This document shows positions 13,582-54,061 of a DNA stretch of 64,000 nt, in pieces (position 1 is the stretch's first letter; each line of letters starts with the position of its first letter). The DNA comes from Paracoccaceae bacterium. GTDB lineage: Bacteria > Pseudomonadota > Alphaproteobacteria > Rhodobacterales > Rhodobacteraceae. The stretch is from the NCBI GenBank assembly GCA_965200885.1, contig OZ241737.1, positions 782,214 through 846,213 of the forward strand, in the 5' to 3' direction. Position numbers and translations under genes: made by a program. The notes under the pieces were generated by a model. It did not search any database, was not told the DNA's origin, and worked only from the letters and a program-made list of their open reading frames with translations.

Positions 13582-13793
13582 GGCGATTATATACTTGTTT
13601 CGCCATTTTCCAAAAAAGCATCTAAATCCAAGGTCAAATGTACACATTGCTTCAAGGAATTTTTCATTTTCAAGATACCCCCAGAATGATGCCAAGGTCA
13701 TAATGAAGCACCCTTCAAAGAAGAATTGAAGGGTGCTGTGAAAGAAGAAAATCGTTTGAAATTGATGTTTGGGGAAACAAGTATATAATCGCC
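13582..13793. mobile_element. TIR element A (212 bp, non-autonomous)
   Basis: Perfect 20-bp terminal inverted repeat: GGCGATTATATACTTGTTTC at 13582-13601 and its reverse complement at 13774-13793. Internal hairpin GCACCCTTCAA..TTGAAGGGTGC. No flanking duplication. Confidence 0.6.
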
Positions 13794-18640: not shown

Positions 18641-18731
18641 AATTCCCTAGTTTCCGACACATAATTGTAAAGCGTTGGAATCGAGATCCCAAGTTCCTTG
18701 GCTAATTCGCCTGGCTTGCTTTCCGGGTTCC
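18641..18731 (-). pseudogene. serine-recombinase C-terminal HTH remnant
   Basis: Encodes KPGELAKELGISIPTLYNYVSET. It aligns at nucleotide level with 24171-24260 of the intact recombinase gene. Confidence 0.55.
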
Positions 18732-18814
18732 TTATGCATTCCCTGCGGTTCATCGACAAAACAAAATGTCTTCTATCAGTTGACATATACAGGCAAATTG
18801 ACTATCTGATTGGC

Positions 18815-21243: not shown

Positions 21244-22214
21244 CCTGGCAATTCCTCGCCCTTGTGATAGGCAAGGGCCTGTTCCTCATTCCAGGGATTT
21301 TCGAAAATGTACTGCAGCCGTTCAAGCAGTTCCCCGGGGGTTGTGCCTTCCAGCAAGAGGCGATTCCGTTCATGGTAGGCCCGCTGGACATTCAGTGCCG
21401 CCGCATGGAGCCGGCCTCCAAAGCCCAGCATGGAATCGGCAATGCGGGCAATCTCCCAGTTGCTGTCAATTTTATCGATTCCTGCAATGATCAGGTGGAT
21501 GGCCGAAACCCTGGGATCGCCAGTCATCATGCTGTGGGCAGCCAGGGCGGTGGCTGCCGATCTGTATTGACCCGCCGCACACCGGATCAGGAAGGAAGGT
21601 GCCCTCGCCGCATGCCATTCATTGAGAAAATCGACCAAGGGCCGGACATTCTCTTCCGATGGGGCATTGTATTTCCTTTGTTCTTCCCGGTTGTCCCAAT
21701 CCTCAATCTCAAAAGTGCGGACCGTCAGGGGCTTCTCTCCCTGAAGTGCATGAACAGCTTCCAAATCATCGCCGTACAAATGCCAACCGACCAGGGTGAA
21801 GAAGCGGATTTCAGGATGGTCCTCGAGAATGTATTCCCATGATCCACCAGCTGCAACATAGATACCTGGCCTTGTCAGATCCCCATACAGTTTTTCATGG
21901 AAGGGAAGAAGGATCTTCTGGACCGCTTGCCGATCGGGCCTAATCCAATTACGATCATATCCCGGGACATGATGGCAGAATTTTGGAACAACCCCGACAT
22001 CCGTGGGGTTGATCCGGTCAAGAAGGGCTTCCACCTCATGGGCAGGCCAGGGTTCAATGTCGTCAAGGGAAATTTTATCTTGAGGCGGGGGGAAGCTGGC
22101 CCCTTCCAATCCGGGAACCATTTTTTGCAGCAAGGGTTTTCCTGCAGCCCAGGAGTGCAGCGAAGTGGCAAGGTTTCTGGTTTTCCGGAAAAGGTTCATG
22201 GAAGTTTCCTTCAT
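21231..22214 (-). CDS. CX5R (protein-tyrosine-phosphatase-loop) protein, paralog 1
   Basis: Start set at MKETSMNLF. The longer ORF would overlap the upstream paralog. P-loop-like IRCAAGQYRSAAT. The C-terminal half aligns by eye with 22291-23157. Confidence 0.55.
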   Translation of the reverse strand: MKETSMNLFRKTRNLATSLHSWAAGKPLLQKMVPGLEGASFPPPQDKISLDDIEPWPAHEVEALLDRINPTDVGVVPKFCHHVPGYDRNWIRPDRQAVQKILLPFHEKLYGDLTRPGIYVAAGGSWEYILEDHPEIRFFTLVGWHLYGDDLEAVHALQGEKPLTVRTFEIEDWDNREEQRKYNAPSEENVRPLVDFLNEWHAARAPSFLIRCAAGQYRSAATALAAHSMMTGDPRVSAIHLIIAGIDKIDSNWEIARIADSMLGFGGRLHAAALNVQRAYHERNRLLLEGTTPGELLERLQYIFENPWNEEQALAYHKGEELPGQEP

Positions 22215-22290: not shown

Positions 22291-23157
22291 TCAGCAACTT
22301 TTCGAAAACTGGCCGTGTCTTTTATTGTATTCAAGAGCCTGTTCCTCATCCCATGGATTGGCAAAAATCTCCTGCAAGTGATCCAGCAATTCCCCAGGAG
22401 TCGCATCTTCTCCCAGCAGCCTGTTGCGCTCGATCGTGGCCCGCTGGACATTCAGGGCCGCCGCATGGAGCCGGCCTCCAAAGCCCAGCATGGGATCGGC
22501 AATGCGGGCAATCTCCCAATTGCTATCCAGGTGGGAATGCCCGGAAATACCGGACATGACCATGCGGATGGCCGACACCGTGGGATCGCCGTTTATCATG
22601 CCGTGAGCCGCCAACGCCGTCACCGGTGAACGAAACAGTCCGGCGGAACAGCAGGTCATAAGGGACGGAAAACCGGCCGCTTGCCATTCCTTGAGAAAAC
22701 CGACCAGGGGGCGGACATTCTCCTCCGAGGGCAGGTCATCGTAAATAATGTAAGAGGATTTTGCGGGAGCCCGGGAATCACGGTCCCGAATCGAAAAGCT
22801 GCGAACCGTCAGGGAATCGTCGGCCCCTATTTGTCGGACAAACGCGCAAATCTCGTTGTCCATCTGATCATAGACATTGGCCAGAAAGCGGATTTCGGGA
22901 TGATCCACGAGGATCCGTTGCCAGCTTCCCCAACCACCAATATAGATACCGCCCCGGGTGCGGTCATGATAGGTTCTTGCCTGAAAGGCCGCCAGTTCCT
23001 TTGGTGCCCCTTTCAGCTTACGGGCCCCGGACCGGATTTCTCTGGGCCCGTGATGACAGATCTTAGGAATGGTGCCGGCATTGCTGCCGCTGAGCCGGTC
23101 AAGCATGGTGTCCAGGGAATCCCAGGGGATTTTCCTTGTCATGGAAATTATCTTCAT
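22291..23157 (-). CDS. CX5R (protein-tyrosine-phosphatase-loop) protein, paralog 2
   Basis: TCCSAGLFRSPVT. Shares the DSNWEIARIAD.MLGFGGRLHAAALNVQRA block with paralog 1. Confidence 0.55.
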   Translation of the reverse strand: MKIISMTRKIPWDSLDTMLDRLSGSNAGTIPKICHHGPREIRSGARKLKGAPKELAAFQARTYHDRTRGGIYIGGWGSWQRILVDHPEIRFLANVYDQMDNEICAFVRQIGADDSLTVRSFSIRDRDSRAPAKSSYIIYDDLPSEENVRPLVGFLKEWQAAGFPSLMTCCSAGLFRSPVTALAAHGMINGDPTVSAIRMVMSGISGHSHLDSNWEIARIADPMLGFGGRLHAAALNVQRATIERNRLLGEDATPGELLDHLQEIFANPWDEEQALEYNKRHGQFSKSC

Positions 23158-23545: not shown

Positions 23546-23736
23546 GGGGATTATATACTTGAGTGACCAAACTGCAAAAATGTCAATTCCTGGAGGTGTT
23601 CAGATACCTCGAAGCGATTCCATTGCACTCTACGGGCTTCTCCGTGAGAGGTATTTTCAGGAATTTGCCAAAAATCAATAAATTTGCACCAAATCGGCTA
23701 GCCTGTGGTAAATGGGTATTCAAATATATAATTCCC
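23546..23736. mobile_element. TIR element C (191 bp)
   Basis: Ends GGGGATTATATACTTGA and TCAAATATATAATTCCC (15 of 17). AAATTT is directly adjacent on both sides. The interior is homologous to element F. Confidence 0.65.
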
Positions 23737-24124: not shown

Positions 24125-24742
24125 TTACTTGCCATCCTTTCCTTTCAGGACCTTGAGTCCGTTTGGTCGTAATTCACCCGTTTCCGATACATAATTGTAA
24201 AGCGTTGGAATCGAAATCCCCAATTCCCTGGCCAGTTCACTGGGCTTGGCATCACGGTCCTTCATGGCTTCTGCCAGCCCCAATACCTGGGTTGGCGTGA
24301 GTGATCTTGGACGTCCGCCCTTGCGGCCACGTGCCCGCGCGGCAGCAAGCCCTGCCCTGGTGCGTTCGGAAATGAGGGATCTTTCGTATTCAGCCAAGAC
24401 AGCAAAGAGATGGAACATCATCCGTCCCTCTGAGGTATTGGTATCCAGATTGCTGCCTTGCCCTTCCATAATCCGGAGGCCAACATCCCTTCTGGTCAAG
24501 TCTTCCACGATTCCAACGAGATGCTGAAGGCTGCGACCCAGGCGATCCAGCCGCCAGACGATCAGGGTATCACCCTGTCTCAGGACCTTGTTGCAATCAC
24601 TCCACCCCGGTAGATCCCTCCGGGTACCTGATCCGGTATCCGAATATATCCAGTCCGGAGCAACACCCGCCCTGATCAGGGCATCCATCTGCAGGTCGGT
24701 TGTCTGCTCGTGGGTCGAGACCCGCATGTATCCAATCAGCAT
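24125..24742 (-). CDS. serine recombinase (resolvase/invertase family)
   Basis: N-terminal catalytic motif LIGYMRVSTHEQ, VWRLDRLGRS, FAVLAEYERSLISERT, and a C-terminal HTH. Confidence 0.85.
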   Translation of the reverse strand: MLIGYMRVSTHEQTTDLQMDALIRAGVAPDWIYSDTGSGTRRDLPGWSDCNKVLRQGDTLIVWRLDRLGRSLQHLVGIVEDLTRRDVGLRIMEGQGSNLDTNTSEGRMMFHLFAVLAEYERSLISERTRAGLAAARARGRKGGRPRSLTPTQVLGLAEAMKDRDAKPSELARELGISIPTLYNYVSETGELRPNGLKVLKGKDGK

Positions 24743-43777: not shown

Positions 43778-44248
43778 ATGGACAGGATATTTATTACCAA
43801 AAACGGTGTCGCCGATGTCGAGGATGATTTGAAAAAACTCGTTTCGATAGATCGGCCCCAGATCATCAAGGCCATAGCCGATGCCAGGGCCCTGGGAGAT
43901 TTGAGTGAAAATGCCGAATACCATTCTGCCAAGGAAAAGCAGGGTTTGATTGAAGCCCGAATATCCTACCTCAAGAATATTCTCTCCAGGGCAGAGATAA
44001 TTGATGTTACCCAGTTGAGCGGATCAATCAAATTTGGTGCCACCGTTAGCCTTGAAAATGAAGAATCCGGAGAGGAAGTAACCTACCAGATCGTTGGTGA
44101 ACCGGAAGCAAACCTTGAAAAAGGCAAATTGAATGTTCGGACTGCTCTTGGCAGGGCTTTGATAGGTAAGGATGAGGGAGATAGTGTTACCGTGAAGGCA
44201 CCCAATGGAGAACGGTATTATACTGTTCTGAAGGTAAGTTACACCTAG
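43778..44248 (+). CDS. greA: transcription elongation factor GreA
   Basis: GDLSENAEYHSAKE motif. 156 aa. Confidence 0.9.
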   Translation: MDRIFITKNGVADVEDDLKKLVSIDRPQIIKAIADARALGDLSENAEYHSAKEKQGLIEARISYLKNILSRAEIIDVTQLSGSIKFGATVSLENEESGEEVTYQIVGEPEANLEKGKLNVRTALGRALIGKDEGDSVTVKAPNGERYYTVLKVSYT

Positions 44249-44253
44249 GGAGG

Positions 44254-45225
44254 ATGAAAATTTTAGAAAGCGGTAAACACATAATGGCAGGCGGAAAAAA
44301 CAAGATTTCCATCCGCAATATCATGGCCTATCTTTTTGCAACGGTAGCAACCATTCTATGGGTACTTTTTTTCTATGAGATAAGCCGAGGCGGTGGATTA
44401 GGCGAAACTTTCCAGAATAACAGGGGTGCAATCCCATTGGTTGTCGGACTGATTCCAATACTGTTTTTCTGGTTGGTGGCAGGATTGTATTTGATGGCAG
44501 TTCAAAACAGCGAACGTTACAACGAGTTGAAAAAGAAGATTGGGAAGCTGAAGGAAGAGATTGATCATATTTCCTTCGGTGAAAGCGAACGGTTCATGAA
44601 CATCTTGACAGACAGTCCGTCGGCACACGGGGAGAGTCCGGAAATCCATGAGGAATCGGAATACGATGATATGGCAGGAGAAACAATTGATACCCCATTC
44701 AGCCATCCCATGTCCAGTGATGAAGTCAGGGGAGAGACAAACATGCTTGATGAATGGGGCCTTGACACGCAAACACTGATCAGGGCCTTCAATATGCCCA
44801 ATGATGAGAATGATTCAGAAGGTTATGATGCAATTGAGCTAGTAATCAAGATTGAATCCCTGGAAAAACTGCTGCGGAATTCCCATGAACTCCTCTTTAC
44901 CCTGGCTGATTATGATTTGATAATGGATGATCTGGAAATTGATATGGGCCTGATCTCAACCTGGAGGCGATTTGCCGCAGATAGTGCCGTAGGTTCGGTT
45001 TCTTCCCTTGGTGGAACCGGAACGTTTGTCGAAATTGCCAAGGTCTCCGGCATTTTGGCCGAAAACAGCAATTTTGAAAGCCTTGCCGACACCTTCAACA
45101 AACAGATGGAAGAGTTTATTTCCAAGGTCATACCACAACTCAGTGATGATGAAATCAGGGAACTGGCCGAAACCAGGACTTTTCTGGCCTTTTTATTGCT
45201 TGGCCAGGTTTTCAATACCGGTTGA
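44254..45225 (+). CDS. hypothetical membrane protein
   Basis: Two N-terminal TM segments followed by an acidic soluble region. No recognised motif. Confidence 0.5.
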   Translation: MKILESGKHIMAGGKNKISIRNIMAYLFATVATILWVLFFYEISRGGGLGETFQNNRGAIPLVVGLIPILFFWLVAGLYLMAVQNSERYNELKKKIGKLKEEIDHISFGESERFMNILTDSPSAHGESPEIHEESEYDDMAGETIDTPFSHPMSSDEVRGETNMLDEWGLDTQTLIRAFNMPNDENDSEGYDAIELVIKIESLEKLLRNSHELLFTLADYDLIMDDLEIDMGLISTWRRFAADSAVGSVSSLGGTGTFVEIAKVSGILAENSNFESLADTFNKQMEEFISKVIPQLSDDEIRELAETRTFLAFLLLGQVFNTG

Positions 45226-45230
45226 TTGCG

Positions 45231-45328
45231 GTTTTCAAACTATATCCAAAAACTGCTGTAGGGATAATATTTGACCAGGGTCACCCCTATCAACCGATAG
45301 GGTATCCTCTCCCAATTCGACCAGACCT
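45231..45328. repeat. diverged copy of the moeA 3' end (left direct repeat, attL-like)
   Basis: Aligns base for base with 52258-52354. I count about nine differences by eye, including one 1-nt indel. The minus strand reads GLVELGEDTLSVDRG.. versus GLVELEEDTLSVDRG.. in intact MoeA. The stop codon and 9 nt of downstream sequence are also conserved. Confidence 0.85.
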
Positions 45329-45356
45329 ATTACAAGGACTGCTTCACGTGAGACAA

Positions 45357-46316
45357 GTTACGGTTGCCATACCGATCTAGATTTGCTACTCTAATAACGT
45401 CCTTATCGGCCGGATTTCCCCCGTTACGGTTGCCATACCGATCTAGATTTGCTACTCTTAGGTTAAATGTGTAATCCAATCCAAGACCGTTACGGTTGCC
45501 ATACCGATCTAGATTTGCTACTCTAAGAACCAGCAACAATCCTCGCTCGTCGACGTTACGGTTGCCATACCGATCTAGATTTGCTACTCTCGAAGGGATT
45601 ATCGGTGCTTACGTCTGGATGTTACGGTTGCCATACCGATCTAGATTTGCTACTCTGGTCGATCTCATCGGAAGCATCCGCGATCCGTTACGGTTGCCAT
45701 ACCGATCTAGATTTGCTACTCTGAGCGAGAGCGGAACAGGGGGCTGGACTAAGTTACGGTTGCCATACCGATCTAGATTTGCTACTCTCATGCCTGGAAA
45801 TAATGTTCGGCTGCGACTGTTACGGTTGCCATACCGATCTAGATTTGCTACTCTAGCTCAAACCGGCTCATTTAAGATATGAATGTTACGGTTGCCATAC
45901 CGATCTAGATTTGCTACTCTCGCATCCAGCATCAACATTCCGATACTGATGTTACGGTTGCCATACCGATCTAGATTTGCTACTCTCACCGATCACATCG
46001 GGAGGCATGACATATAGTTACGGTTGCCATACCGATCTAGATTTGCTACTCTGTTGACACAAAAAAATATCGTCTGTCTGTCGTTACGGTTGCCATACCG
46101 ATCTAGATTTGCTACTCTTTAGTGTGAGCATCTGCCATAATGGCAGCAGTTACGGTTGCCATACCGATCTAGATTTGCTACTCTGCAACTCGCCATTAAT
46201 CCAAATAGGATTATGTTACGGTTGCCATACCGATCTAGATTTGCTACTCTCATTAGCAGGAGCATGAGGAGGAGCGCGCAGTTACGGTTGCCATACCGAT
46301 CTAGATTTGCTACTCT
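45357..46316 (+). CRISPR. CRISPR array: 15 identical 36-bp repeats and 14 spacers of 30 bp
   Basis: Repeat GTTACGGTTGCCATACCGATCTAGATTTGCTACTCT starts every 66 nt from 45357 to 46281. The + orientation is inferred from the tracrRNA anti-repeat and terminator. Confidence 0.97.
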
Positions 46317-46326
46317 AGAAAGTTGT

Positions 46327-46361
46327 CAAACCCTTTTGAACAAGTGGTTCAAAAGGGTTTG
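46327..46361. terminator. 15-bp perfect hairpin between the array and the cas2 3' end (bidirectional terminator candidate)
   Basis: CAAACCCTTTTGAAC-aagtg-GTTCAAAAGGGTTTG followed by GTTTAT on the + strand. Confidence 0.55.
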
Positions 46362-46386
46362 GTTTATAAAATATTGAAGTGGTAGA

Positions 46387-46713
46387 TCAAAATAATGTAA
46401 GTAATTTTGGTTTTTTTTCAGTTTTTTTGATCTTTTTTCCAGAATAGTTTCTAGTCAATTCAAATTGTTTGTCTGTGAAAAACATTATTGAAACATCTCC
46501 TTCATGAGGTACTTTTTTGCCAATCCTTTCTGCTAATGACTCTGCACTTGGGCGGTTCGGGCACACTCTCAAGTAGACTGAAAATTGTTTCATAATACAT
46601 CCTTCACTTAAAAGGTAATTTCGAAAACCCGTGGCATATCTTCTTTCAACCTTAGTGCCTACAGGTAAATCAAAAACAACAAGAACCCACATAATCGAAA
46701 ATGAGGAGTGCAA
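46387..46713 (-). CDS. cas2: CRISPR-associated endoribonuclease Cas2
   Basis: 108 aa with the N-terminal VLVVFDLPV strand carrying the conserved Asp. It sits between cas1 and the array. Confidence 0.85.
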   Translation of the reverse strand: MHSSFSIMWVLVVFDLPVGTKVERRYATGFRNYLLSEGCIMKQFSVYLRVCPNRPSAESLAERIGKKVPHEGDVSIMFFTDKQFELTRNYSGKKIKKTEKKPKLLTLF

Positions 46714-46743
46714 ATGAAAAAATCCATTTAATTTAAATCATGA

Positions 46744-47643
46744 TTAATTTGCGAACTCTATCTTTAGGGGAAGTTCCAGCTTTTTTTCGGAATTTTCAAA
46801 AACGGAAATTAGGCTATTTACAACTAATACCATAGCCCTAAAAAGATCTGTTTCACCAGATGCTAAGATCAATGTCCTTTGCATTAGCCCTGCAAGAATT
46901 TCTTTTGATTCTTTTGAAATATCTTCACTCCAAGAATTCCTATTCTGCCAAACTACACGATCAACAAGGGGCCGGAATGGTTCCAAAAGATCATCGACTA
47001 AACAAAAATTATTACGAGAATTAATGTGGCCTACTCCAAGAGAGGGAGATAACCCTGCTGAAATTACAGCCCTAGCCAATGCTGAACGAAGTATTGTATA
47101 CCCATAATTCAAATGTGCATTAATACCCGGAATGTGACGGTCACGGTGAAAATTTAACCCAAATAACTTTTTCCAATAATATCGAGCTGCCTGCGCCTCA
47201 ACATTGTTAGGGTCACCAGAGCGAACTTTTTTTTCAAGATTAAGCAAAAACTTGCTAGCAGGTAAGTTGATTCCATTTAAAGTTCTAGATTGTTCCCTAA
47301 TTTTTGCCTTTACTAGCTCTTTCCAAATCCTTTTTTTTATAGGTTTTGCTACTGATGCCTGGGCTTGAATCCTTCCCGATTGAAGGTAATGATTTGCAGT
47401 GGGCACCAATAATGCTACTGGTAAATGCTTTTCATTACATACTACCAATGGTATATTACATTCTGCCAATTTAAATAATAAGCCGTGTGAATAGGTCCCA
47501 TAATAGGAATGAGTAATTATGGCTTGGATATCTCTTAAAGGTATACGACCTAATTCTTGCTTATTGTCCAAAACAACCAAACTTTTCCGTTCAGTATGTA
47601 AGTATCTTCCTGGCTCCGTAATATCAACAATACGCCAAGTCAT
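46744..47643 (-). CDS. cas1: CRISPR-associated endonuclease Cas1 (type II)
   Basis: 299 aa. Signature GHINSRNNFCLVDDLLEPFRPLVD (His...Asp/Glu metal site). Confidence 0.9.
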   Translation of the reverse strand: MTWRIVDITEPGRYLHTERKSLVVLDNKQELGRIPLRDIQAIITHSYYGTYSHGLLFKLAECNIPLVVCNEKHLPVALLVPTANHYLQSGRIQAQASVAKPIKKRIWKELVKAKIREQSRTLNGINLPASKFLLNLEKKVRSGDPNNVEAQAARYYWKKLFGLNFHRDRHIPGINAHLNYGYTILRSALARAVISAGLSPSLGVGHINSRNNFCLVDDLLEPFRPLVDRVVWQNRNSWSEDISKESKEILAGLMQRTLILASGETDLFRAMVLVVNSLISVFENSEKKLELPLKIEFAN

Positions 47644-47656
47644 ACATTTTTCTTTT

Positions 47657-50600
47657 TCATTCGTTTAACATTGGAAAAAAGTAAGTGGGTTCCCCAAGAT
47701 GATTAGTAATAATTCGCTGGGCCCTCTTTTCCTTAAAAAATTTTAGACGCCTTTCATATAATGAACGCTTTCCAGCATCTTTTGCATCAGTGCACTTCAC
47801 AACACCCATTTTGCCATCAGAAATTCTCACTACTATCATTCTAACCCGATAATTTAAATTATCAGGATCATCCAATAGCAGAATATCGTCTTTATGTGCA
47901 GACCATAGAAGGGCGTTACCTGCCTTGTCTGATTCTGGTACAAAAGTTTCATCATTTGCTTCAAACATTGTAATAATTTGCCACTTGATTTTTCCCTTAT
48001 TATTTTTATAAAAATCCATACGGTGGTTTCTACCACTAAGGTAACCTCCATTGAATTTATTTCCTTGCTTAATAACATTTACTAATTTTTGTTCCTTAAA
48101 ATCCCAGTAATAGCAAGGGAGAGCCTTCTTTTTCATGAGATCAATTGCTTTCTTGTAAACTAATGTTTCTGTAATTGCTCTTACTTTCTTCCCTTGATTT
48201 TTGTTTTGAATTGCTTCTGCCCTTAATTCTAGCCGTGCTTTTTCACAAAATCCTTCCACTTTATTTTGGATCATGTTGAGGTTATTTGTAAAATCAGCAA
48301 TTGATGGGTTGTCTCCATATCCCTTAATCAATGCACCACTGATTTTTTTCTTTTTCAAGTCAGTTAAGGATTTTATATCGCCAAGTTTCACTTTTGTCCG
48401 AGTTAAATACTTCCCTTTCTCATGGGGCCCAGAAACTATCCCCCTTAAAGTATCCTCGTGCAATTGCCCACTTGCTGAATTATCCGGCTTCCTTGATAGA
48501 AGTACATTTTGCGTTACCTTCTCAACATGGGACCAAAATTCTCTTTCACCACCAAATGGAGGTTGAATTTTGTCAACTATACCCAAGATCCTTTTTTCTT
48601 CACAATGACGTGCAGCGGTTTGAATCTTTTGTATAGTGGATCTGGTGGTACACCCGACAACCAACGCATCAATAAAATGATGTCTGTGATCATCTCTTTG
48701 TTTGATGCTTGATTCACCCCCAAGTACCTTATTCAGGCCCCATTTCTTTCGCAACAACGAAGTTACTTTACTGCTGACAGCAATTACATTTTCTGGTTTT
48801 CCATAAAGGCAAGTTAGGTATTGTCTCGTAATTTTGGCGATATACGAATTATCAATAGAAAATCTTTCTCGCCAATAGTCTGGATTATTTTCAAACCTTT
48901 CTAGGGCATCACTTTTAAATCTATTTTTCTTTCCTGCAGGTAAGTCATTAACCCTTCTAATAATTGCATCCCAATCAAAATTTGGATCAGAAGAAAATGC
49001 GTCATAAGGGGTCCGATTGTTTTTAAAAGCATTAGCACTTTTCTTACATAAAACCATATTTGCTTTAGAATCATCATAGGTTTTACTGCGAGGTAAAATA
49101 TGATCGATTTCAACTTCACCACTAAACAACTGAATAAGGCTGATGTTATCACCTGTATAAACACATTTGCATTTTTGTTGTTCCCATAATTCATATTTCA
49201 ATTCGTTGGGTCGCGTTTGTTCAAGTTCATTTTCCTTAAGCTTCCGCCTAATTTGCTCTCTTTTTTCTCTGTTACTCGCAATCTTTTGCTCTATCAATGC
49301 TTTTGTTTTTTCACTTTTTCCTAGATCCCTTGCTAATTCAACATAAATTTTCTCTGGCAATCCATATTTATCGATTAAACAATTTACTGCTTTTCTTATT
49401 TGATTAAGGGCAACATGGACAACCGGATTTGGTGCCCTACCGTATTTCTTCTCAAGAAAATTAGTGTTAGGGGGTTTGTTTGATGGGTTTTCAGAAAAAA
49501 TCCAAATTGGCTCAATAGCGTACCCTTTTAAAACTTCACCGTAATAGGGTAATTTCCTGAATATTTCTCCAATTGGTGTTTGAGCATGGACCAACCCAGC
49601 CAAATCCTCAGCTGCACGGGAGGAAAGGGTGGGATGTTTCTTGAGTTCCACAAGTATTTTCCTGGTGGCGGTTTTCCCTAGATTTCCATAACCTTTGGGA
49701 AAATCTGTCTGGATAAGCCGCTTTGTTAATTGATCAGATAAATTTATTACCGTCTTGATCTTATCAACAGCTTCTTCCTTGTCAAAATGGGTTGACAATA
49801 TCTCCAGAACAAAATCCTTGTTTTCTGCATTTAATTCAGCCCACTCTTCACCCAATTCATAATTCGAAAATGGATACTTCGCTATCTCAGTTCTAGCTTT
49901 GGAATCTTCTAGGTTAACCTTGCAATTTTTTTTAATCCCAATTATTGTTTTTATGTCAGTTTTATTTAGGGACTCTCCCCTCATCAAGGATTCCACAAGT
50001 TCGTCCCTTTGACCAATTGTCAATTCCGGCAAGGGTGTCCCTTGATGAGAAAACCTTAAATTGTTTACCTCCTCATAAATCCTCTTTTCCTGAAAAAGTC
50101 TAGAGGATTTTGGCAGACGTTTTTCATTCGTAACATACGAACAATTACCAGGTGGGGGTGTCGAGACTTTTCGTTGGAAAAACAATTCTTCTTCAAGGGA
50201 TTCTCGAAATGAATCGTTCAACTTCTCCTGATGAAATTCTTTTTGTTTTTGCCAAATGATATCGAATTCTTTCCTTAACAAATCTCTTGAGGGATAAAAA
50301 TCATAACTTCCTTTTCCAATCACTTCTTGGTTGATTCTGACCTTTTTCCTTCTCTTTTCCCTATACCAAAGAAACTGGCCATAAGTTTTAAATCCCATTT
50401 CGTTGATTTTTACTTCAAGTTTCTTAATACCTTCTTTTGTTAATAAAGTATCTTTTTCATCATTATCCCTCCCGTCAAATGCACTGCTACCTCGATGTTT
50501 TGCCATATGGAGAATTATTCTTTGTAATTCTTCCAAATCTATTTTCTCGTTAACTGCTTTTGCCCTTAGTTTTAAAGGTGATTTATCCAGTAAATACTTC

Positions 50601-50866
50601 GGAATATCATTATGAGGGAATCCGATTCCATTTTTAAGGAAGATTTGCGCCAAGCGTCGTAATCTCATTTGTTTTCTATCTATCATTCGCCTTTGAGAAC
50701 GAGCTAATCGACGAGTTTCTCCTCCAACTGGTGCCGACCAGGTTCTCACAAATCCTTCTTTAACACCAATAACATTTTCTTCCTTGTCAATTTCAATCAC
50801 AGCTAACCCAAGGGAAGCAACCCCAACATCAATTCCAAGATTGTATTTAAAAGGAGTTGTATTCAT
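47657..50866 (-). CDS. cas9: Cas9, type II-C size class (1069 aa)
   Basis: RuvC-I NLGIDVGVASLG, Arg-rich bridge helix RRLARSQRRMIDRKQMRLRRL, HNH EIDHILPRS..NMVLC..N, RuvC-III DDHRHHFIDALV. There is no csn2 or cas4, so subtype II-C. Confidence 0.95.
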   Translation of the reverse strand: MNTTPFKYNLGIDVGVASLGLAVIEIDKEENVIGVKEGFVRTWSAPVGGETRRLARSQRRMIDRKQMRLRRLAQIFLKNGIGFPHNDIPKYLLDKSPLKLRAKAVNEKIDLEELQRIILHMAKHRGSSAFDGRDNDEKDTLLTKEGIKKLEVKINEMGFKTYGQFLWYREKRRKKVRINQEVIGKGSYDFYPSRDLLRKEFDIIWQKQKEFHQEKLNDSFRESLEEELFFQRKVSTPPPGNCSYVTNEKRLPKSSRLFQEKRIYEEVNNLRFSHQGTPLPELTIGQRDELVESLMRGESLNKTDIKTIIGIKKNCKVNLEDSKARTEIAKYPFSNYELGEEWAELNAENKDFVLEILSTHFDKEEAVDKIKTVINLSDQLTKRLIQTDFPKGYGNLGKTATRKILVELKKHPTLSSRAAEDLAGLVHAQTPIGEIFRKLPYYGEVLKGYAIEPIWIFSENPSNKPPNTNFLEKKYGRAPNPVVHVALNQIRKAVNCLIDKYGLPEKIYVELARDLGKSEKTKALIEQKIASNREKREQIRRKLKENELEQTRPNELKYELWEQQKCKCVYTGDNISLIQLFSGEVEIDHILPRSKTYDDSKANMVLCKKSANAFKNNRTPYDAFSSDPNFDWDAIIRRVNDLPAGKKNRFKSDALERFENNPDYWRERFSIDNSYIAKITRQYLTCLYGKPENVIAVSSKVTSLLRKKWGLNKVLGGESSIKQRDDHRHHFIDALVVGCTTRSTIQKIQTAARHCEEKRILGIVDKIQPPFGGEREFWSHVEKVTQNVLLSRKPDNSASGQLHEDTLRGIVSGPHEKGKYLTRTKVKLGDIKSLTDLKKKKISGALIKGYGDNPSIADFTNNLNMIQNKVEGFCEKARLELRAEAIQNKNQGKKVRAITETLVYKKAIDLMKKKALPCYYWDFKEQKLVNVIKQGNKFNGGYLSGRNHRMDFYKNNKGKIKWQIITMFEANDETFVPESDKAGNALLWSAHKDDILLLDDPDNLNYRVRMIVVRISDGKMGVVKCTDAKDAGKRSLYERRLKFFKEKRAQRIITNHLGEPTYFFPMLNE

Positions 50867-50923
50867 TAATTTTTACCTTTTTCCATTGCTTTAATTTTTG
50901 AATTGAGACCAGAGAAATTCTTT

Positions 50924-51661
50924 AAGGATTATATACTTGTTTGTCCATTGCCTGATTTCAGTTCTTTTTCCTGTTTTCCAAAAACCGCCGGCCCTTCCCC
51001 GGCGGTTGCCTTGTCATTGCCTCGCCCACATTTTCAGGTGAGTCCTTGATGATGGGAAACTCCTCGCGGCCTTCGGGCCGGTCTGCCCCGGGTTTCCTTG
51101 TTTCGGGGGATTGCGTCTTAACCGTCGGACGGTCATTGCGGGTTGGCATGCTCTTCTCCGGGTATGGATAACGGCAATGCTTCAATTTTCCTTGCAACAT
51201 CATCAAGTTTCAATTCACCGGCCATACCCCCTCGACCTTCGGGGTTGCGGGATGCTGTCGCAATTCTTCGACAGGATTGCTGTTCCGAATCCGAACGATC
51301 CCCACTCAAGGTGAATCCGTCATTTCCACATTGAGCTGTTGGCAGGAAGAATGTCCACCATCGCCAAATCGCTCTTTCCCATTCGTCCGCTCTTGTCAAA
51401 ATGATTTTCCCACCCCATGTTTCCAGTCATCGGGAATACTCGTTCTCCTGGATGAAAAATGTGTTTGTGGTATTCCCGACCCTTCCCCCAAAAGCCTGAT
51501 TCCGAACGTTTCACCCCTTCGGGACGGAAAACGAACAAAATCGCAAGGGAATCATGTCCTTGACGGGATTTCCGGCCATCTTGTGGAAAAACCTCCCATG
51601 CACGTTCCTCCGGGTGTCAAGAGGCTAGTTGCAAAAATGGGGAAACAAGTATGTAATCTCC
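50924..51661. mobile_element. TIR element E (738 bp) with GC-rich non-coding or decayed cargo
   Basis: Ends AAGGATTATATACTTGTTTG and GAAACAAGTATGTAATCTCC. Flanking 8-mers AATTCTTT (50916-50923) and AATTCTTA (51662-51669) match at 7 of 8 positions. It begins 57 bp upstream of the cas9 ATG. Confidence 0.6.
50980..51007 (-). terminator. intrinsic terminator inside element E (minus strand)
   Basis: CCGCCGG-cccttcc-CCGGCGG followed by TTTTT on the minus strand. Confidence 0.5.
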
Positions 51662-51676
51662 AATTCTTAATATTAT

Positions 51677-51857
51677 GGGAATTATATACTTGATTGAATT
51701 TCCCATTTACCGAAAATACAACAGGTGTTCAGACACCGCGGGGGAATACAATTGCACTCCAGGGGAATGTGTGTGGTAGGTTTTTTCACAAAATCGCCGG
51801 AAAACCAGCGATGCCTCCACAAAAAAATAGGGAAATTCAATCAAGTATATAATTCCC
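51677..51857. mobile_element. TIR element F (181 bp)
   Basis: Perfect 28-bp inverted repeat GGGAATTATATACTTGATTGAATTTCCC. Perfect 8-bp duplication AATATTAT at 51669-51676 and 51858-51865. Confidence 0.8.
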
Positions 51858-51887
51858 AATATTATCTAAAAAAATACAATCTAATTC

Positions 51888-51916
51888 TTGACTATTTATC
51901 TACCAATCCTTATTTC
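51888..51916 (+). promoter_or_regulatory. candidate tracrRNA promoter
   Basis: TTGACT (51888-51893), a 17-nt spacer, then TATTTC (51911-51916). This places a start about 5-7 nt downstream, at the beginning of the anti-repeat. Confidence 0.45.
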
Positions 51917-51920
51917 TTGA

Positions 51921-52011
51921 GTGTAGCAAATCCAGATCGGTATGGTAAGAAAATCGTAATAAGTTATTTATTAGCGAAAAATGAAGGTCGCATAGCGGCC
52001 TTCTTTTTTTT
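51921..52011 (+). ncRNA. tracrRNA
   Basis: Anti-repeat GAGTGTAGCAAATCCAGATCGGTATGG (51919-51945) is complementary to repeat nt 11-36 with two mismatches. CGTAAT (51955-51960) can pair with repeat nt 1-6. This is followed by AAG and a strong terminator GAAGGTCGC-ata-GCGGCCTTC plus a T-run (51983-52011). Confidence 0.8.
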
Positions 52012-52257
52012 GGGGGTAGTATCCGATTGATTCCAAGGATGAAGATGAAATGCAACCGAGTAATTCACTATGCTTAATTTCCTTAGAACATTGGCGTGCA
52101 TTGTAATGTATGAACGACATCTGGGACTGATTTGCCAATGATCGTGGAGTAATTTCTTTACAGCATATTGAAATACTTTGGATAGTACAAAGACTTGATG
52201 ACTTTTTGAGGAAATTTACTTGCCCGCCATAATTGGTGAAGTGCTTTTTCAATGGAA

Positions 52258-52354
52258 GTTTTAAAACTATACCCAGAAACTGCTGTAGGGATAATATTTG
52301 ATCAGACTCCCCCTATCAACCGATAGGGTATCTTCTTCCAATTCGACCAGACCT
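52258..52354. repeat. moeA 3' end plus 9 nt downstream (right direct repeat, attR-like)
   Basis: Partner of 45231-45328. It forms the functional 3' end of the intact moeA gene. Confidence 0.85.
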
Positions 52355-53520
52355 GCCGACCAGGACAGGCTGGTGGTCAAACCCGATCCTTCCGATGGAA
52401 AGATCTCAGCCAAACCTTCATCATTCATTCTGGCACGAAGGTATTCCCTGCGACCGGCTTTTTTGTGTTTCTCAAATGCTGCCGGAACCATGAAACCCAC
52501 TGGTGGTCTCCATAATTCACCCGACAATATACACATGGCCGGATGAGCAAAAACCAGGGAACAGACAAAGGCTGCAATGGGATTTCCAGGAAGTCCGAAA
52601 ATATAGGCATCCTGCCATCTTGAAAGGGCCAGTGGCCGACCTGGCTTCACAGCGATTCGCCAGAAGTTTAGCTGGCCTTCCCTCGACAGTAAATCGGATA
52701 CAAAATCTTCCATGCCCGATGAAGCACCACCGGAAGTCAGGATAATATCGGAACAAGACGCTCCCCGATTCAGACTGTTGCGCACATCATCCCTGTTATC
52801 CCCAACCATACCGAGATCAACAGGAACAAACCCCATCTTCTGTATCAGGGACAGAAGCATGGGTCTATTGGCATCAAAAACAGTTGCATTATCCATCATC
52901 ATGCCACTTTCGCACAATTCATTACCTGTAGACAAAACGCCCACACGGAGTTTGGCGTAGACATTTATTTTATCCACTCCTGATGAAACCAGGCTGGCCA
53001 GATCATTGGTTCTGATTTTATGACCTTTGTCAAACAACTGATCTCCAACCTTGATATCTTCACCGGCCAACCGGGTGTTGGCTCCCTTTTTTGGCCTTGA
53101 TTTAAAATGAAGCCGGTTGGAATCGATTTGAGAGTATTCCTGCAGATGTACTGTGTCCACACCCTCAGGCAAAGGAGCGCCAGTCAGTATCTTTATGGCT
53201 TTACCAAATGGCAGTGGCTTATCCAGTATCGAACCGGGCGCTGCATAACCACTTGCAAGTTCCAACTCATCATGTCTGGTTAAAGAGTCAAAGGCAAAGG
53301 CAAAGCCATCCACAGCTGAATTGGTCAACGGCGGATTGGCCCTCAGGGCGGTAACCTGTTTGGCGAGGATCCTGCCAACGGCCTTGTCCAAGGTAATTAC
53401 CTCAGATTTGTCCAGTGGGTTAAAACTGGATAAAATCCTACTTATGGCATCACCGACCGGGAGCCAATTCACCCCGGGGGGTAAGGCAAAGCAATCTGGA
53501 TCAGAAGTTTCAGTATTCAT
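52267..53520 (-). CDS. moeA: molybdopterin molybdotransferase
   Basis: MoeA pattern with VLSTGNEL and ILTSGGASSG motifs. 417 aa. Confidence 0.85.
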   Translation of the reverse strand: MNTETSDPDCFALPPGVNWLPVGDAISRILSSFNPLDKSEVITLDKAVGRILAKQVTALRANPPLTNSAVDGFAFAFDSLTRHDELELASGYAAPGSILDKPLPFGKAIKILTGAPLPEGVDTVHLQEYSQIDSNRLHFKSRPKKGANTRLAGEDIKVGDQLFDKGHKIRTNDLASLVSSGVDKINVYAKLRVGVLSTGNELCESGMMMDNATVFDANRPMLLSLIQKMGFVPVDLGMVGDNRDDVRNSLNRGASCSDIILTSGGASSGMEDFVSDLLSREGQLNFWRIAVKPGRPLALSRWQDAYIFGLPGNPIAAFVCSLVFAHPAMCILSGELWRPPVGFMVPAAFEKHKKAGRREYLRARMNDEGLAEIFPSEGSGLTTSLSWSAGLVELEEDTLSVDRGSLIKYYPYSSFWV

Positions 53521-53554
53521 TTGACCAATTATCCTACCTCAAGTTGAATCATTG

Positions 53555-54061
53555 TCACGAATGAAGATCAAAAGTATTCACAACAAATTCAGCGATTCCA
53601 TTGATATCGTCAAGGTCAAATGCCGGCAAGTTTTGTTCAGGCACTGGCCTGTCAGAAACTATGGCAATTATATCCTTGTCATCTGGGGCAAGATCAGGAC
53701 CGGATGAATCTTCCCTACGGATTTCCAACTTTGGAAAAGAAAGACTCTTGAAACCTTCCACAAGCACCAGTTCAGCATCCTCAAGCTTGCCCAGCATTGT
53801 CGTGAAATCAGGTCTGCTGTTTTCGGATTCTTGATGGATTAGGGCCCAACGCCTTGATGATACTATAAGCACCTCTTTTGCACCAGCTTTGCGGTGCTTG
53901 TAACTATCAGTGCCAGGCTGGTCAATGTCAAAATCGTGATGGGCATGCTTGAGGGTTGAAACCCGAATGCTCCGGCTTGTCAATTCGGTAATCAGGGAAC
54001 TTATCAGGGTGGTTTTTCCCGAATTCTTCCACCCGGCAATTCCAAGAATGTTCATTTGCAA
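53555..54061 (-). CDS. mobB: molybdopterin-guanine dinucleotide biosynthesis adaptor protein
   Basis: Walker A GWKNSGKTTL. 168 aa. Overlaps the end of mobA. Confidence 0.8.
   Translation of the reverse strand: MQMNILGIAGWKNSGKTTLISSLITELTSRSIRVSTLKHAHHDFDIDQPGTDSYKHRKAGAKEVLIVSSRRWALIHQESENSRPDFTTMLGKLEDAELVLVEGFKSLSFPKLEIRREDSSGPDLAPDDKDIIAIVSDRPVPEQNLPAFDLDDINGIAEFVVNTFDLHS

What the first reader, a model, noticed from the sequence alone, without database searches (positions are those of the whole stretch)
50916..51865. Two TIR elements inserted back to back between cas9 and its tracrRNA
Element E starts 57 bp upstream of the cas9 ATG. Element F follows only 15 bp after E and ends 30 bp before the candidate tracrRNA -35 box. 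The right duplication of E (51662-51669) and the left duplication of F (51669-51676) share one nucleotide. Removing both elements, each with one duplication copy, shrinks a ~1.05-kb gap to a divergent cas9/tracrRNA control region of roughly 125 bp. The insertions therefore separate cas9 from whatever promoter lay upstream. That could silence, rewire or decouple cas9 and tracrRNA expression.
Basis: partly seen in the sequence, partly recalled or inferred. Interest (0 to 1): 0.65.

Follow-up and report, generated by a model that had tools for sequence, protein, structure and literature searches.

The report
Two transposon relics upstream of cas9
Two small transposase-less mobile elements of the IS1595 family really did insert between cas9 and its tracrRNA in an uncultured Rhodobacteraceae bacterium, splitting the shared control region; this is an ordinary kind of event, and the CRISPR system shows no sign of having been killed by the older insertion.

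Summary
Element E (50924-51661, 738 bp) and element F (51677-51857, 181 bp) have related terminal inverted repeats and 8-bp target duplications (E 7/8, F 8/8) that share one base. Relatives with 85-87% identical Cas9 have the uninterrupted site, a 226-235 bp moeA-cas9 gap. Removing E and F, each with one duplication copy, restores that sequence colinearly. The same inverted repeat and an 8-bp duplication flank a 2.5-kb element in another Rhodobacteraceae MAG that encodes an IS1595-family transposase. E and F are therefore non-autonomous IS1595-family elements. E keeps a small gene with its own promoter-like site and terminator, pointing at cas9.

E also sits at this site in a same-species strain (flanks 99.45% identical) and has a 99% identical copy at another locus. 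F is absent from that strain. The tracrRNA promoter, anti-repeat and terminator are untouched. Only 57 bp of native sequence stay attached to cas9, so its promoter was probably split.

Silencing by E is not supported. Both E-bearing strains keep intact cas9, cas1 and cas2, cas9 dN/dS is below 1, and the two 14-spacer arrays share no spacer. The effect of F is untestable here. This is a known kind of event and of modest interest.

The parts
47657..50866 (-). cas9, type II-C, 1069 aa, intact
   Evidence: ORF. Pfam HNH_4 5e-20, RuvC_III 4e-14, Cas9_a. GIDVG and IDH motifs present.
50867..50923 (-). The 57 bp of native cas9 upstream sequence still attached to the gene. It includes the left target duplication of E, AATTCTTT (50916-50923).
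   Evidence: Aligns to the region just upstream of cas9 in L029 and L031. It is 100% identical in L023.
50924..51661 (-). Element E: a 738-bp non-autonomous IS1595-family element (cassette type, no transposase), 51% G+C. Its internal gene points the same way as cas9.
   Evidence: TIR (I3). Empty sites. Same element at the same site in L023/24/25 at 98.8%. A second copy at another locus, L033, at 99%. No transposase similarity.
50958..51149 (-). orf63 inside E: a small gene (63 aa) preceded by GGAG
   Evidence: tblastn with the L006 end ORF gives 5.7e-8. tblastx to L016 gives 4e-9. The gene was called in other assemblies as P0121. No Pfam or NCBIfam family.
50978..51007 (-). Terminator-like hairpin (8-9 bp G+C stem) followed by TTTTT, reading toward cas9. 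It overlaps the 3' end of orf63.
   Evidence: The 61-nt stretch containing it folds at -19.1 kcal/mol, z -2.2. An equivalent hairpin sits at the same place in L006, L016 and L001.
51185..51213 (-). Promoter-like site TTGAAA-17-GAAAAT upstream of orf63
   Evidence: Consensus scan. This is a pattern match only.
51662..51676 (.). Right duplication of E (AATTCTTA, 51662-51669) and left duplication of F (AATATTAT, 51669-51676), overlapping by one base
   Evidence: Sequence. Printed.
51677..51857 (.). Element F: a 181-bp MITE of the same inverted-repeat family, with perfect 28-nt TIRs. It is in inverse orientation relative to E.
   Evidence: I2, and I1 showing 48 nt at 79% to the E interior, inverted. 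64% identical to the element at 23546-23736. Absent from L023/L024.
51858..51865 (.). Right target duplication of F, AATATTAT
51888..51916 (+). tracrRNA promoter candidate TTGACT-17-TATTTC, intact
   Evidence: Read from the sequence. The same TTGACT-N17-TA(A/T)(A/T)TT arrangement occurs in L029, L031, L039 and L040.
51919..52011 (+). tracrRNA: an anti-repeat that pairs with all 36 nt of the CRISPR repeat, then a terminator (51983-52003 plus a T run)
   Evidence: Repeat:tracr duplex -46.7 kcal/mol against -13.9 +/- 3.4 for shuffles. Terminator.
45357..46316 (+). CRISPR array: 15 identical 36-nt repeats and 14 spacers of 30 nt
46387..47643 (-). cas2 (46387-46713) and cas1 (46744-47643)
   Evidence: Pfam CRISPR_Cas2 2e-14 and Cas_Cas1 3.6e-33.
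13582..13793 (.). A further element with the same inverted repeats (212 bp) and no clear target duplication
23546..23736 (.). A further F-like MITE (191 bp) flanked by AAATTT on both sides

Best explanation
E and F are two non-autonomous relatives of an IS1595-family insertion sequence. They transposed into adjacent A+T-rich 8-bp targets inside the roughly 120-bp divergent cas9/tracrRNA control region of a type II-C CRISPR-Cas locus. The host is an uncultured Rhodobacteraceae bacterium, probably sponge-associated.

E is a 738-bp cassette. It has lost the transposase but keeps the small end-proximal gene of the parent element. That gene has a promoter-like site and a terminator, and it points the same way as cas9. 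E predates the split from a same-species strain. F is a 181-bp MITE with perfect ends that is seen only in this genome.

The tracrRNA gene and its own promoter are left intact. cas9 keeps only 57 bp of native leader. Everything further upstream, probably including part of its original promoter, is displaced by about 0.94 kb and shielded by E's terminator.

I infer that cas9 is now transcribed from signals in the last ~117 bp: the end of E plus the native leader. That stretch contains a TGGACA -35-like hexamer and a perfect outward TATAAT in the inverted repeat, next to the retained AAGAAT. The net effect would be a rewired promoter, not a silenced one.

**Shown:** the insertions, their family, their polymorphism, and the intactness and continued constraint of the cas genes.
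**Inferred:** where the old and new cas9 promoters lie.
For: - **Anatomy.** TIRs and duplications. Motif enrichment of 7 matches against 0.11 expected.
- **Empty sites.** L029/30 and L031/32 have the uninterrupted site, and the restored window sequence is colinear with them.
- **Family.** In L006 the same ends (GGGGATTATATACTTGTTTCCCC) and an 8-bp duplication TTAATTAT bracket a 2.5-kb element. It encodes an IS1595 transposase: NF033547 1.4e-37 and PF12762 1.3e-35. The literature gives 8-bp duplications as the rule for this family (PMC8101967; PMC3852290 Table 4).
- **E is mobile and older.** It sits at the same site in L023/24/25 at 98.8% identity. Three Logan contigs break inside its end. A 99% identical copy lies at a different locus, L033.
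- **F is younger or variable.** Its ends and duplication are perfect. It is absent from L023/24.
- **E's cargo.** orf63 is homologous to the small ORF at the same end of L006, L016, L001 and L017.
- **System still under constraint after E.** cas9, cas1 and cas2 are intact in both E-bearing strains. cas9 dN/dS is 0.60, p 0.017 against neutrality. Polarised codon changes are 12 synonymous to 19 non-synonymous, and 12 to 17. The arrays share 0 of 14 spacers behind identical repeats. The tracrRNA duplex is intact.
- **L023 constrains the promoter position.** There a further 1.2-kb element separates E's internal promoter from cas9, yet cas9 is intact. This points to a promoter in the shared, 100% identical proximal ~140 bp.
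- **Precedent.** Transposable elements supplying outward or hybrid promoters have been shown experimentally in Paracoccus (PMC3281130).
Against: - No promoter in the proximal 117 bp passes the consensus scan. TGGACA lies 19 nt from AAGAAT, and the TATAAT in the inverted repeat has no good -35.
- cas9 dN/dS between the two E-bearing strains (0.60) is higher than between E-free relatives (0.25) or on deeper comparisons (0.20). That could mean relaxed selection after reduced expression, although short divergence times also inflate the ratio.
- cas9 is about 3% diverged where the flanks are about 0.5%. The pattern is mosaic, so recombination could have imported both the cas9 variation and a different array. 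That weakens the spacer-turnover argument.
- The L023 junction lacks the 7-bp upstream duplication copy of E. The history of F (never present, or deleted together with 15 bp by recombination between inverted repeats) is therefore unresolved.
- There are no expression data.
Confidence: 0.6

Rival explanations
1. The insertions, E alone or E plus F, cut cas9 off from its promoter. cas9 is transcriptionally silent or nearly so in this strain, and the locus is in early decay.
For: - The insertion point lies inside the only 76-86 bp available for a cas9 promoter in relatives.
- E's terminator points at cas9.
- No consensus promoter is found in the remaining 57 bp.
- dN/dS rises to 0.60 between E-bearing strains, against 0.20-0.25 elsewhere.
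- cas9 has diverged about five times more than its flanks.
Against: - 3.2 kb of cas9 carries 100 substitutions between the two strains and not one stop or frameshift. cas1 and cas2 are also intact.
- The synonymous excess over neutrality is significant (p 0.017) and appears in both lineages.
- The arrays have perfectly uniform repeats and entirely different spacers.
- The tracrRNA is intact.
- For F alone there is no evidence either way.
Confidence: 0.2
2. The insertions are functionally neutral. The cas9 promoter lies wholly within the 57 bp that stayed attached, so nothing changed.
For: - The proximal 57 bp are 85-87% conserved with L029 and L031, and identical in L023.
- The cas genes remain intact.
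Against: - A promoter fitting into 57 bp would leave a leader of about 20 nt or less.
- No -35/-10 pair is recognisable there (and my own reading).
- The best promoter-like pairs in the relatives straddle the insertion point.
Confidence: 0.15
3. The arrangement, particularly F, is an assembly artefact produced by joining repeat copies in a metagenome-assembled genome.
For: - F is seen only in this window.
- Contigs of relatives break at these repeats.
- The Cas9 of the window is not on record in any other assembly.
Against: - F is flanked by a perfect 8-bp duplication of exactly the sequence that is present once in the empty sites. A mis-join would not create that.
- E at this site is reproduced in assemblies from several samples.
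Confidence: 0.05

Closest known systems
IS1595-family insertion sequences and their MITEs (ISfinder family, Siguier et al. 2009; for example the 165-bp ISHwa6-derived MITE with 25-bp IR and 8-bp DR, PMC3852290)
   Same: - The ends begin with GG.
- The inverted repeats are about 25-29 bp and the target duplications are 8 bp.
- The same ends bracket an element with a DDE_Tnp_IS1595 transposase (L006).
- F is a classic MITE in size and lacks an ORF.
   Different: - E is larger (738 bp) than typical MITEs and keeps a small non-transposase gene.
- The parent-type element (L006) is a 'transporter IS' that carries a DNA methyltransferase.
- This particular inverted-repeat sequence family is not one I can tie to a named IS.
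Mobile insertion cassettes (MICs, first described in Bacillus cereus; mentioned in PMC3281130)
   Same: E is bounded by IS-type inverted repeats, has no transposase, carries a passenger ORF, and occurs at more than one locus.
   Different: The passenger is a 63-aa ORF of unknown function that is also an integral end-proximal part of the parent IS. It is not an acquired cargo gene.
Promoter delivery or disruption by transposable elements: outward or hybrid promoters, shown experimentally in Paracoccus (PMC3281130); Correia elements of Neisseria (my own knowledge)
   Same: - The insertion is immediately upstream of a gene.
- The element end carries -35-like and -10-like hexamers facing outward.
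- The element also carries a terminator.
   Different: No promoter activity has been measured here, and the candidate hexamers are at suboptimal spacing.
Type II-C CRISPR-Cas of the Neisseria meningitidis kind (Zhang et al. 2013, my own knowledge)
   Same: - cas9-cas1-cas2 with no fourth cas gene.
- 36-nt repeats ending in TGCTAC...
- The array is read toward the cas genes.
- The tracrRNA pairs with the whole repeat.
   Different: The tracrRNA lies upstream of cas9 and is divergent from it. Promoters inside the repeats are only suggested by the TGCTACTCT motif and were not tested.

Membership tests
IS1595-family derived non-autonomous element (MITE / MIC) | Terminal inverted repeats matching those of an element that encodes an IS1595-family (DDE_Tnp_IS1595) transposase | tested here: met
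   The L006 ends GGGGATTATATACTTGTTTCCCC are identical over 24 nt to the E end as found in L023, and closely match those of E, F, 13582-13793 and 23546-23736. The L006 ORF hits NF033547 at 1.4e-37 and PF12762 at 1.3e-35. Only one transposase-bearing example was found.
IS1595-family derived non-autonomous element (MITE / MIC) | 8-bp target-site duplication (PMC8101967) | tested here: met
   F 8/8 (AATATTAT). E 7/8 (AATTCTTT / AATTCTTA). L006 8/8 (TTAATTAT). The element at 23546 shows only 6 matching bp, and the one at 13582 shows none.
IS1595-family derived non-autonomous element (MITE / MIC) | No transposase gene inside the element | tested here: met
   No Pfam hit for any E ORF. tblastn and tblastx with the L006 transposase find nothing in E or anywhere in the window.
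IS1595-family derived non-autonomous element (MITE / MIC) | Evidence of mobility: empty sites and copies at other loci | tested here: met
   Empty sites in L029-L032. An E copy at a different locus, L033, at 99%. F absent in L023. Four family members in the window.
IS1595-family derived non-autonomous element (MITE / MIC) | A compatible transposase present in the same genome to mobilise it | not testable with these tools
   None within the 64-kb window. The rest of the genome is not available, and the genome is not in the searched collections.
Type II-C CRISPR-Cas | cas9, cas1 and cas2 only, with an adjacent array and a tracrRNA complementary to the repeat | tested here: met
   Pfam hits. Array. 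Duplex -46.7 kcal/mol. No csn2 or cas4 ORF lies between the array and moeA.
Element-borne promoter driving the downstream gene | Transcription of cas9 starting inside or at the edge of E | not testable with these tools
   Only sequence motifs are available: TATAAT in the inverted repeat and TGGACA 19 nt from AAGAAT. The consensus scan does not call them.

The most novel reading that the evidence does not exclude
The end of element E has taken over transcription of cas9. E's terminator would insulate cas9 from all upstream signals. A hybrid or outward promoter, built from the inverted repeat and the retained native -10, would then drive the gene. The species would carry a natural allelic series that could show how a type II-C system tolerates rewiring of its cas9/tracrRNA control region: the empty site, E plus a 1.2-kb element, and E plus F. 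A more remote variant is that the 63-aa protein encoded by E acts on the neighbouring CRISPR genes.
Probability: 0.3. Interest if true: 0.45.

Novelty: new member of a known kind. Interest (0 to 1): 0.33.

Why it matters
It shows that the short A+T-rich control region between cas9 and its tracrRNA is a repeated landing site for mobile elements in one bacterial lineage. Three independent insertions are seen across two strains, and the system appears to survive the older one. For anyone mining this Cas9, the practical points are these. The native promoter is not upstream of the ATG in this strain. The tracrRNA lies about 1 kb away, not about 120 bp. Annotation pipelines that expect a compact locus could miss it. 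Beyond that, it is a well-documented example of a common phenomenon, not a new mechanism.

Tried and rejected
- **E as a structured RNA.** The interior is G+C-rich and has several UUCG-type hairpins. Rfam found no family match in 44000-54000 at E up to 1 apart from a chance hit outside E. Folding is not better than shuffles on either strand, with z -1.2 and -0.6. Rejected.
- **E as a decayed transposase gene.** There are no Pfam hits and no tblastn or tblastx similarity outside the orf63 end. The 430 bp between 51210 and 51640 remain unexplained.
- **Naming orf63.** Pfam, NCBIfam, the word-indexed search of 5.8 billion proteins and the exhaustive HMMER search of 1.84 billion representatives gave only its own copy (P0121) and one 53-aa relative (P0124). 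Its function is unknown.
- **More alleles of the site.** The metagenome scan with the tracrRNA-side flank returned only five chance matches. The window's exact Cas9 is on record nowhere else.
- **Plasmid and phage collections.** No match to E plus F.
- **Self-targeting spacers.** None in the window or the fetched loci.
- **Locating the native cas9 promoter.** Comparison with Cas9 loci at 60% identity (L039, L040) confirmed the conserved tracrRNA promoter. No alignable cas9 promoter emerged.
- **Order of insertion.** It cannot be read from the overlapping duplications, since either order gives the observed sequence.

Full report
**What is in the window.** The minus strand carries cas9 (47657-50866, 1069 aa; HNH_4, RuvC_III and Cas9_a), cas1 (46744-47643) and cas2 (46387-46713). 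Next to them is an array of 15 identical 36-nt repeats and 14 spacers (45357-46316). No fourth cas gene is present, so the locus is type II-C.

On the plus strand, from about 51919 to 52011, lies a tracrRNA. Its 5' part pairs with all 36 nt of the repeat, at -46.7 kcal/mol against -13.9 +/- 3.4 for shuffled sequence. It ends in a strong terminator at 51983-52003. TTGACT-17-TATTTC (51888-51916) precedes it. The closest Cas9 proteins are labelled Rhodobacteraceae MAGs. I read the sample names of the related assemblies (ROBB21, ENGE20, KELL22) as sponge-microbiome studies from my own knowledge, and this was not verified.

E runs from 50924 to 51661. Its ends are 87% complementary over 23 nt (I3) and 20 of 26 to the very tips. 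It is flanked by AATTCTTT and AATTCTTA, a 7/8 match.

F runs from 51677 to 51857 with perfect 28-29 nt inverted repeats (I2). It is flanked by AATATTAT twice. E begins 57 bp upstream of the cas9 ATG. F ends 30 nt before the tracrRNA -35 box.

The shared core of the ends, ATTATATACTTGWTTG, occurs 7 times in the window against 0.11 expected. The other copies belong to two more short elements, at 13582-13793 and 23546-23736. The interior of F is 64% identical to the second of these. F also contains 48 nt that are 79% identical, in inverse orientation, to a subterminal part of E (I1). So E and F are related to each other and sit in opposite orientations.

**Empty sites prove the insertions.** The loci encoding the nearest Cas9 relatives are syntenic: fdhD, mobA-like, mobB, moeA, then cas9-cas1-cas2.
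- In L029/L030 (Cas9 85% identical) and L031/L032 (87%), the gap from the moeA stop to the cas9 ATG is only 235 and 226 bp. It holds the tracrRNA and an uninterrupted TTTAGATAATATTAAAAA(A)TTTCT.
- Deleting E and F from the window, each with one duplication copy, gives a sequence that aligns colinearly with these sites.

**Family.** A scan of one genome per species for the end motif found it mainly in Rhodobacteraceae MAGs. In L006 the same ends (GGGGATTATATACTTGTTTCCCC) and a perfect 8-bp duplication (TTAATTAT) bracket a 2.5-kb element. That element encodes:
- an IS1595-family transposase (NF033547 1.4e-37; PF12762 1.3e-35);
- an N6/N4 DNA methyltransferase;
- a small ORF at the end.

Eight-bp duplications are the rule for this family, and GG termini are described for the related Merlin elements (PMC8101967). 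An IS1595-derived MITE with a 25-bp IR and an 8-bp DR has been described (PMC3852290). IS1595 members that carry passenger genes are known as transporter ISs (PMC8496243). E and F therefore qualify as non-autonomous IS1595-family elements. No matching transposase lies in the window.

**What E carries.** E is not a structured RNA. Rfam finds nothing there, and folding is no better than shuffles. Its cas9-proximal third holds a well-formed small gene on the cas9 strand:
- a promoter-like TTGAAA-17-GAAAAT (51213-51185);
- GGAG, then an ATG at 51149 and 63 codons;
- a terminator-like hairpin with a U run (51007-50978).

The protein is homologous to the small ORF at the same end of L006, L016, L001 and L017, with the motif EEF.[IT]IKD[ST]P.NV....PPKK. 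The hairpin is conserved in position but not in sequence. No database names this protein. The remaining 430 bp of E match nothing.

**History.** L023, L024 and L025 belong to the same species as the window. Their flanks are 99.45% identical over 4 kb.
- They carry E at the same site at 98.8% identity. Three further contigs break inside the E end, 94 bp upstream of cas9.
- A 99% identical E end sits at an unrelated locus, L033. E is therefore a multi-copy element that was mobile recently.
- F is absent from L023/L024. Their junction also lacks the 7-bp upstream duplication copy of E. Either F plus 15 bp was deleted by recombination between the two directly repeated ends, or F was never there and 7 bp were lost separately. 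I cannot decide between these.
- The same strains carry a third insertion: a 1228-bp G+C-rich element with its own inverted repeats and an 8-bp duplication, sitting inside E's hairpin.

Across two strains, three transposition events have hit the 120 bp upstream of cas9.

**Effect on expression: what can and cannot be said.** The tracrRNA promoter, anti-repeat and terminator are intact and are conserved in the relatives. For cas9, the space between the tracrRNA -35 box and the ATG is only 76-86 bp in relatives. The insertion point lies 57 bp from the ATG.

The consensus scan finds no promoter in the retained 57 bp. The best-scoring pairs in the relatives straddle the insertion point or lie upstream of it:
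- TTGAGA-N16/18-TA(A/T)TAT, on the tracrRNA strand;
- ATGATA-16-TAGAAT, on the cas9 strand of L031.

These counts are not above what shuffles give, so they are leads only. With E's terminator facing cas9, transcription from further upstream would be blocked. I therefore infer that the original cas9 promoter was split.

The stretch downstream of the terminator (50867-50982) is 100% identical in both E-bearing strains. It contains a perfect outward TATAAT in the inverted repeat, and a TGGACA 19 nt from the retained AAGAAT. Transposable elements that deliver outward or hybrid promoters have been shown in Paracoccus (PMC3281130). A rewired promoter is plausible but unproven.

**Is cas9 silenced?** The evidence is against it for E. 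Since the two E-bearing strains diverged:
- cas9 accumulated 100 substitutions and no stop or frameshift;
- cas1 and cas2 are intact;
- dN/dS is 0.60, with a synonymous excess significant against neutrality (p 0.017);
- polarised with L029 as outgroup, both lineages show 12 synonymous codon changes, against 19 and 17 non-synonymous ones, where neutrality predicts about 1 to 3.8;
- the two arrays share no spacer, although every repeat is identical.

There are caveats. The ratio is higher than in E-free comparisons (0.20-0.25). cas9 is also about 3% diverged in a mosaic pattern, against about 0.5% for cas1, moeA and the flanks. Relaxed selection, diversifying selection and recombination that imported foreign alleles and arrays all remain possible. 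Nothing can be said about F, which is found only in this genome.

**Verdict.** It is a pair of IS1595-family non-autonomous elements in a CRISPR control region. This is a new instance of a well-known kind of event, not a new mechanism.

Silencing is disfavoured for E, and decoupling from the tracrRNA is untested.

Noticed in passing
window 45231-45328 and 52258-52354: A direct repeat of about 98 bp (88-96% identical) brackets the whole low-G+C CRISPR-Cas island: array, cas2, cas1, cas9 and tracrRNA. The right copy is the 3' end of moeA. Both copies are also present in L023 and L029. This looks like the scar of a site-specific integration into the end of moeA, but no integrase lies inside the island.
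   Followed up: partly
window 52011-52247: A 236-bp segment between the tracrRNA terminator and the moeA stop is present here and in L023/L024 (100% identical). It is absent from L029 and L031, where the terminator abuts moeA. It has no inverted repeats, no duplication, no other copy and no Pfam hit for its 93-aa ORF.
   Followed up: partly
L023 4629-5856 (also in L024 and L025): A third insertion in the same control region: a 1228-bp G+C-rich element with its own inverted repeats (CCCTAC...CACACAT) and an 8-bp duplication CAACCGCC. It sits inside E's terminator hairpin and truncates orf63. No protein family hit.
   Followed up: partly
window 47657-50866 compared with L023 6001-9210: cas9 differs by 3.1% of its nucleotides in mosaic blocks. 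There are 55 amino-acid changes, and 15 codons carry 2-3 changes. By contrast cas1 has 4 differences in 900 nt, moeA has 7 in 1254 nt, and the flanks are 99.45% identical. This suggests recombination with diverged alleles or diversifying selection on Cas9.
   Followed up: partly
L006 228-2748: An IS1595-family 'transporter IS' in a Rhodobacteraceae MAG carries an orphan N6/N4 DNA methyltransferase (PF01555, 2.3e-41) as passenger. L016 and L017 hold fragments of the same design.
   Followed up: partly
window 45357-46316: Every repeat ends in TTTGCTACTCT, which resembles the TGCTACAAT extended -10 inside Neisseria type II-C repeats (my own knowledge). The tracrRNA strand implies that the array is read toward cas2. 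Promoters inside the repeats are therefore possible.
   Followed up: no
L031 5058-7610: The cas9 of the empty-site relative VYFX01000010 ends in a stop codon after 850 aa, 15 bp from the contig end. This is either a truncated gene or an assembly-end artefact.
   Followed up: no
window 21272-21467 / 22332-22527 and 18641-18741 / 24171-24271: Two further pairs of dispersed direct repeats (77-80% identical) lie in a region with overlapping ORFs. They may be other mobile elements.
   Followed up: no
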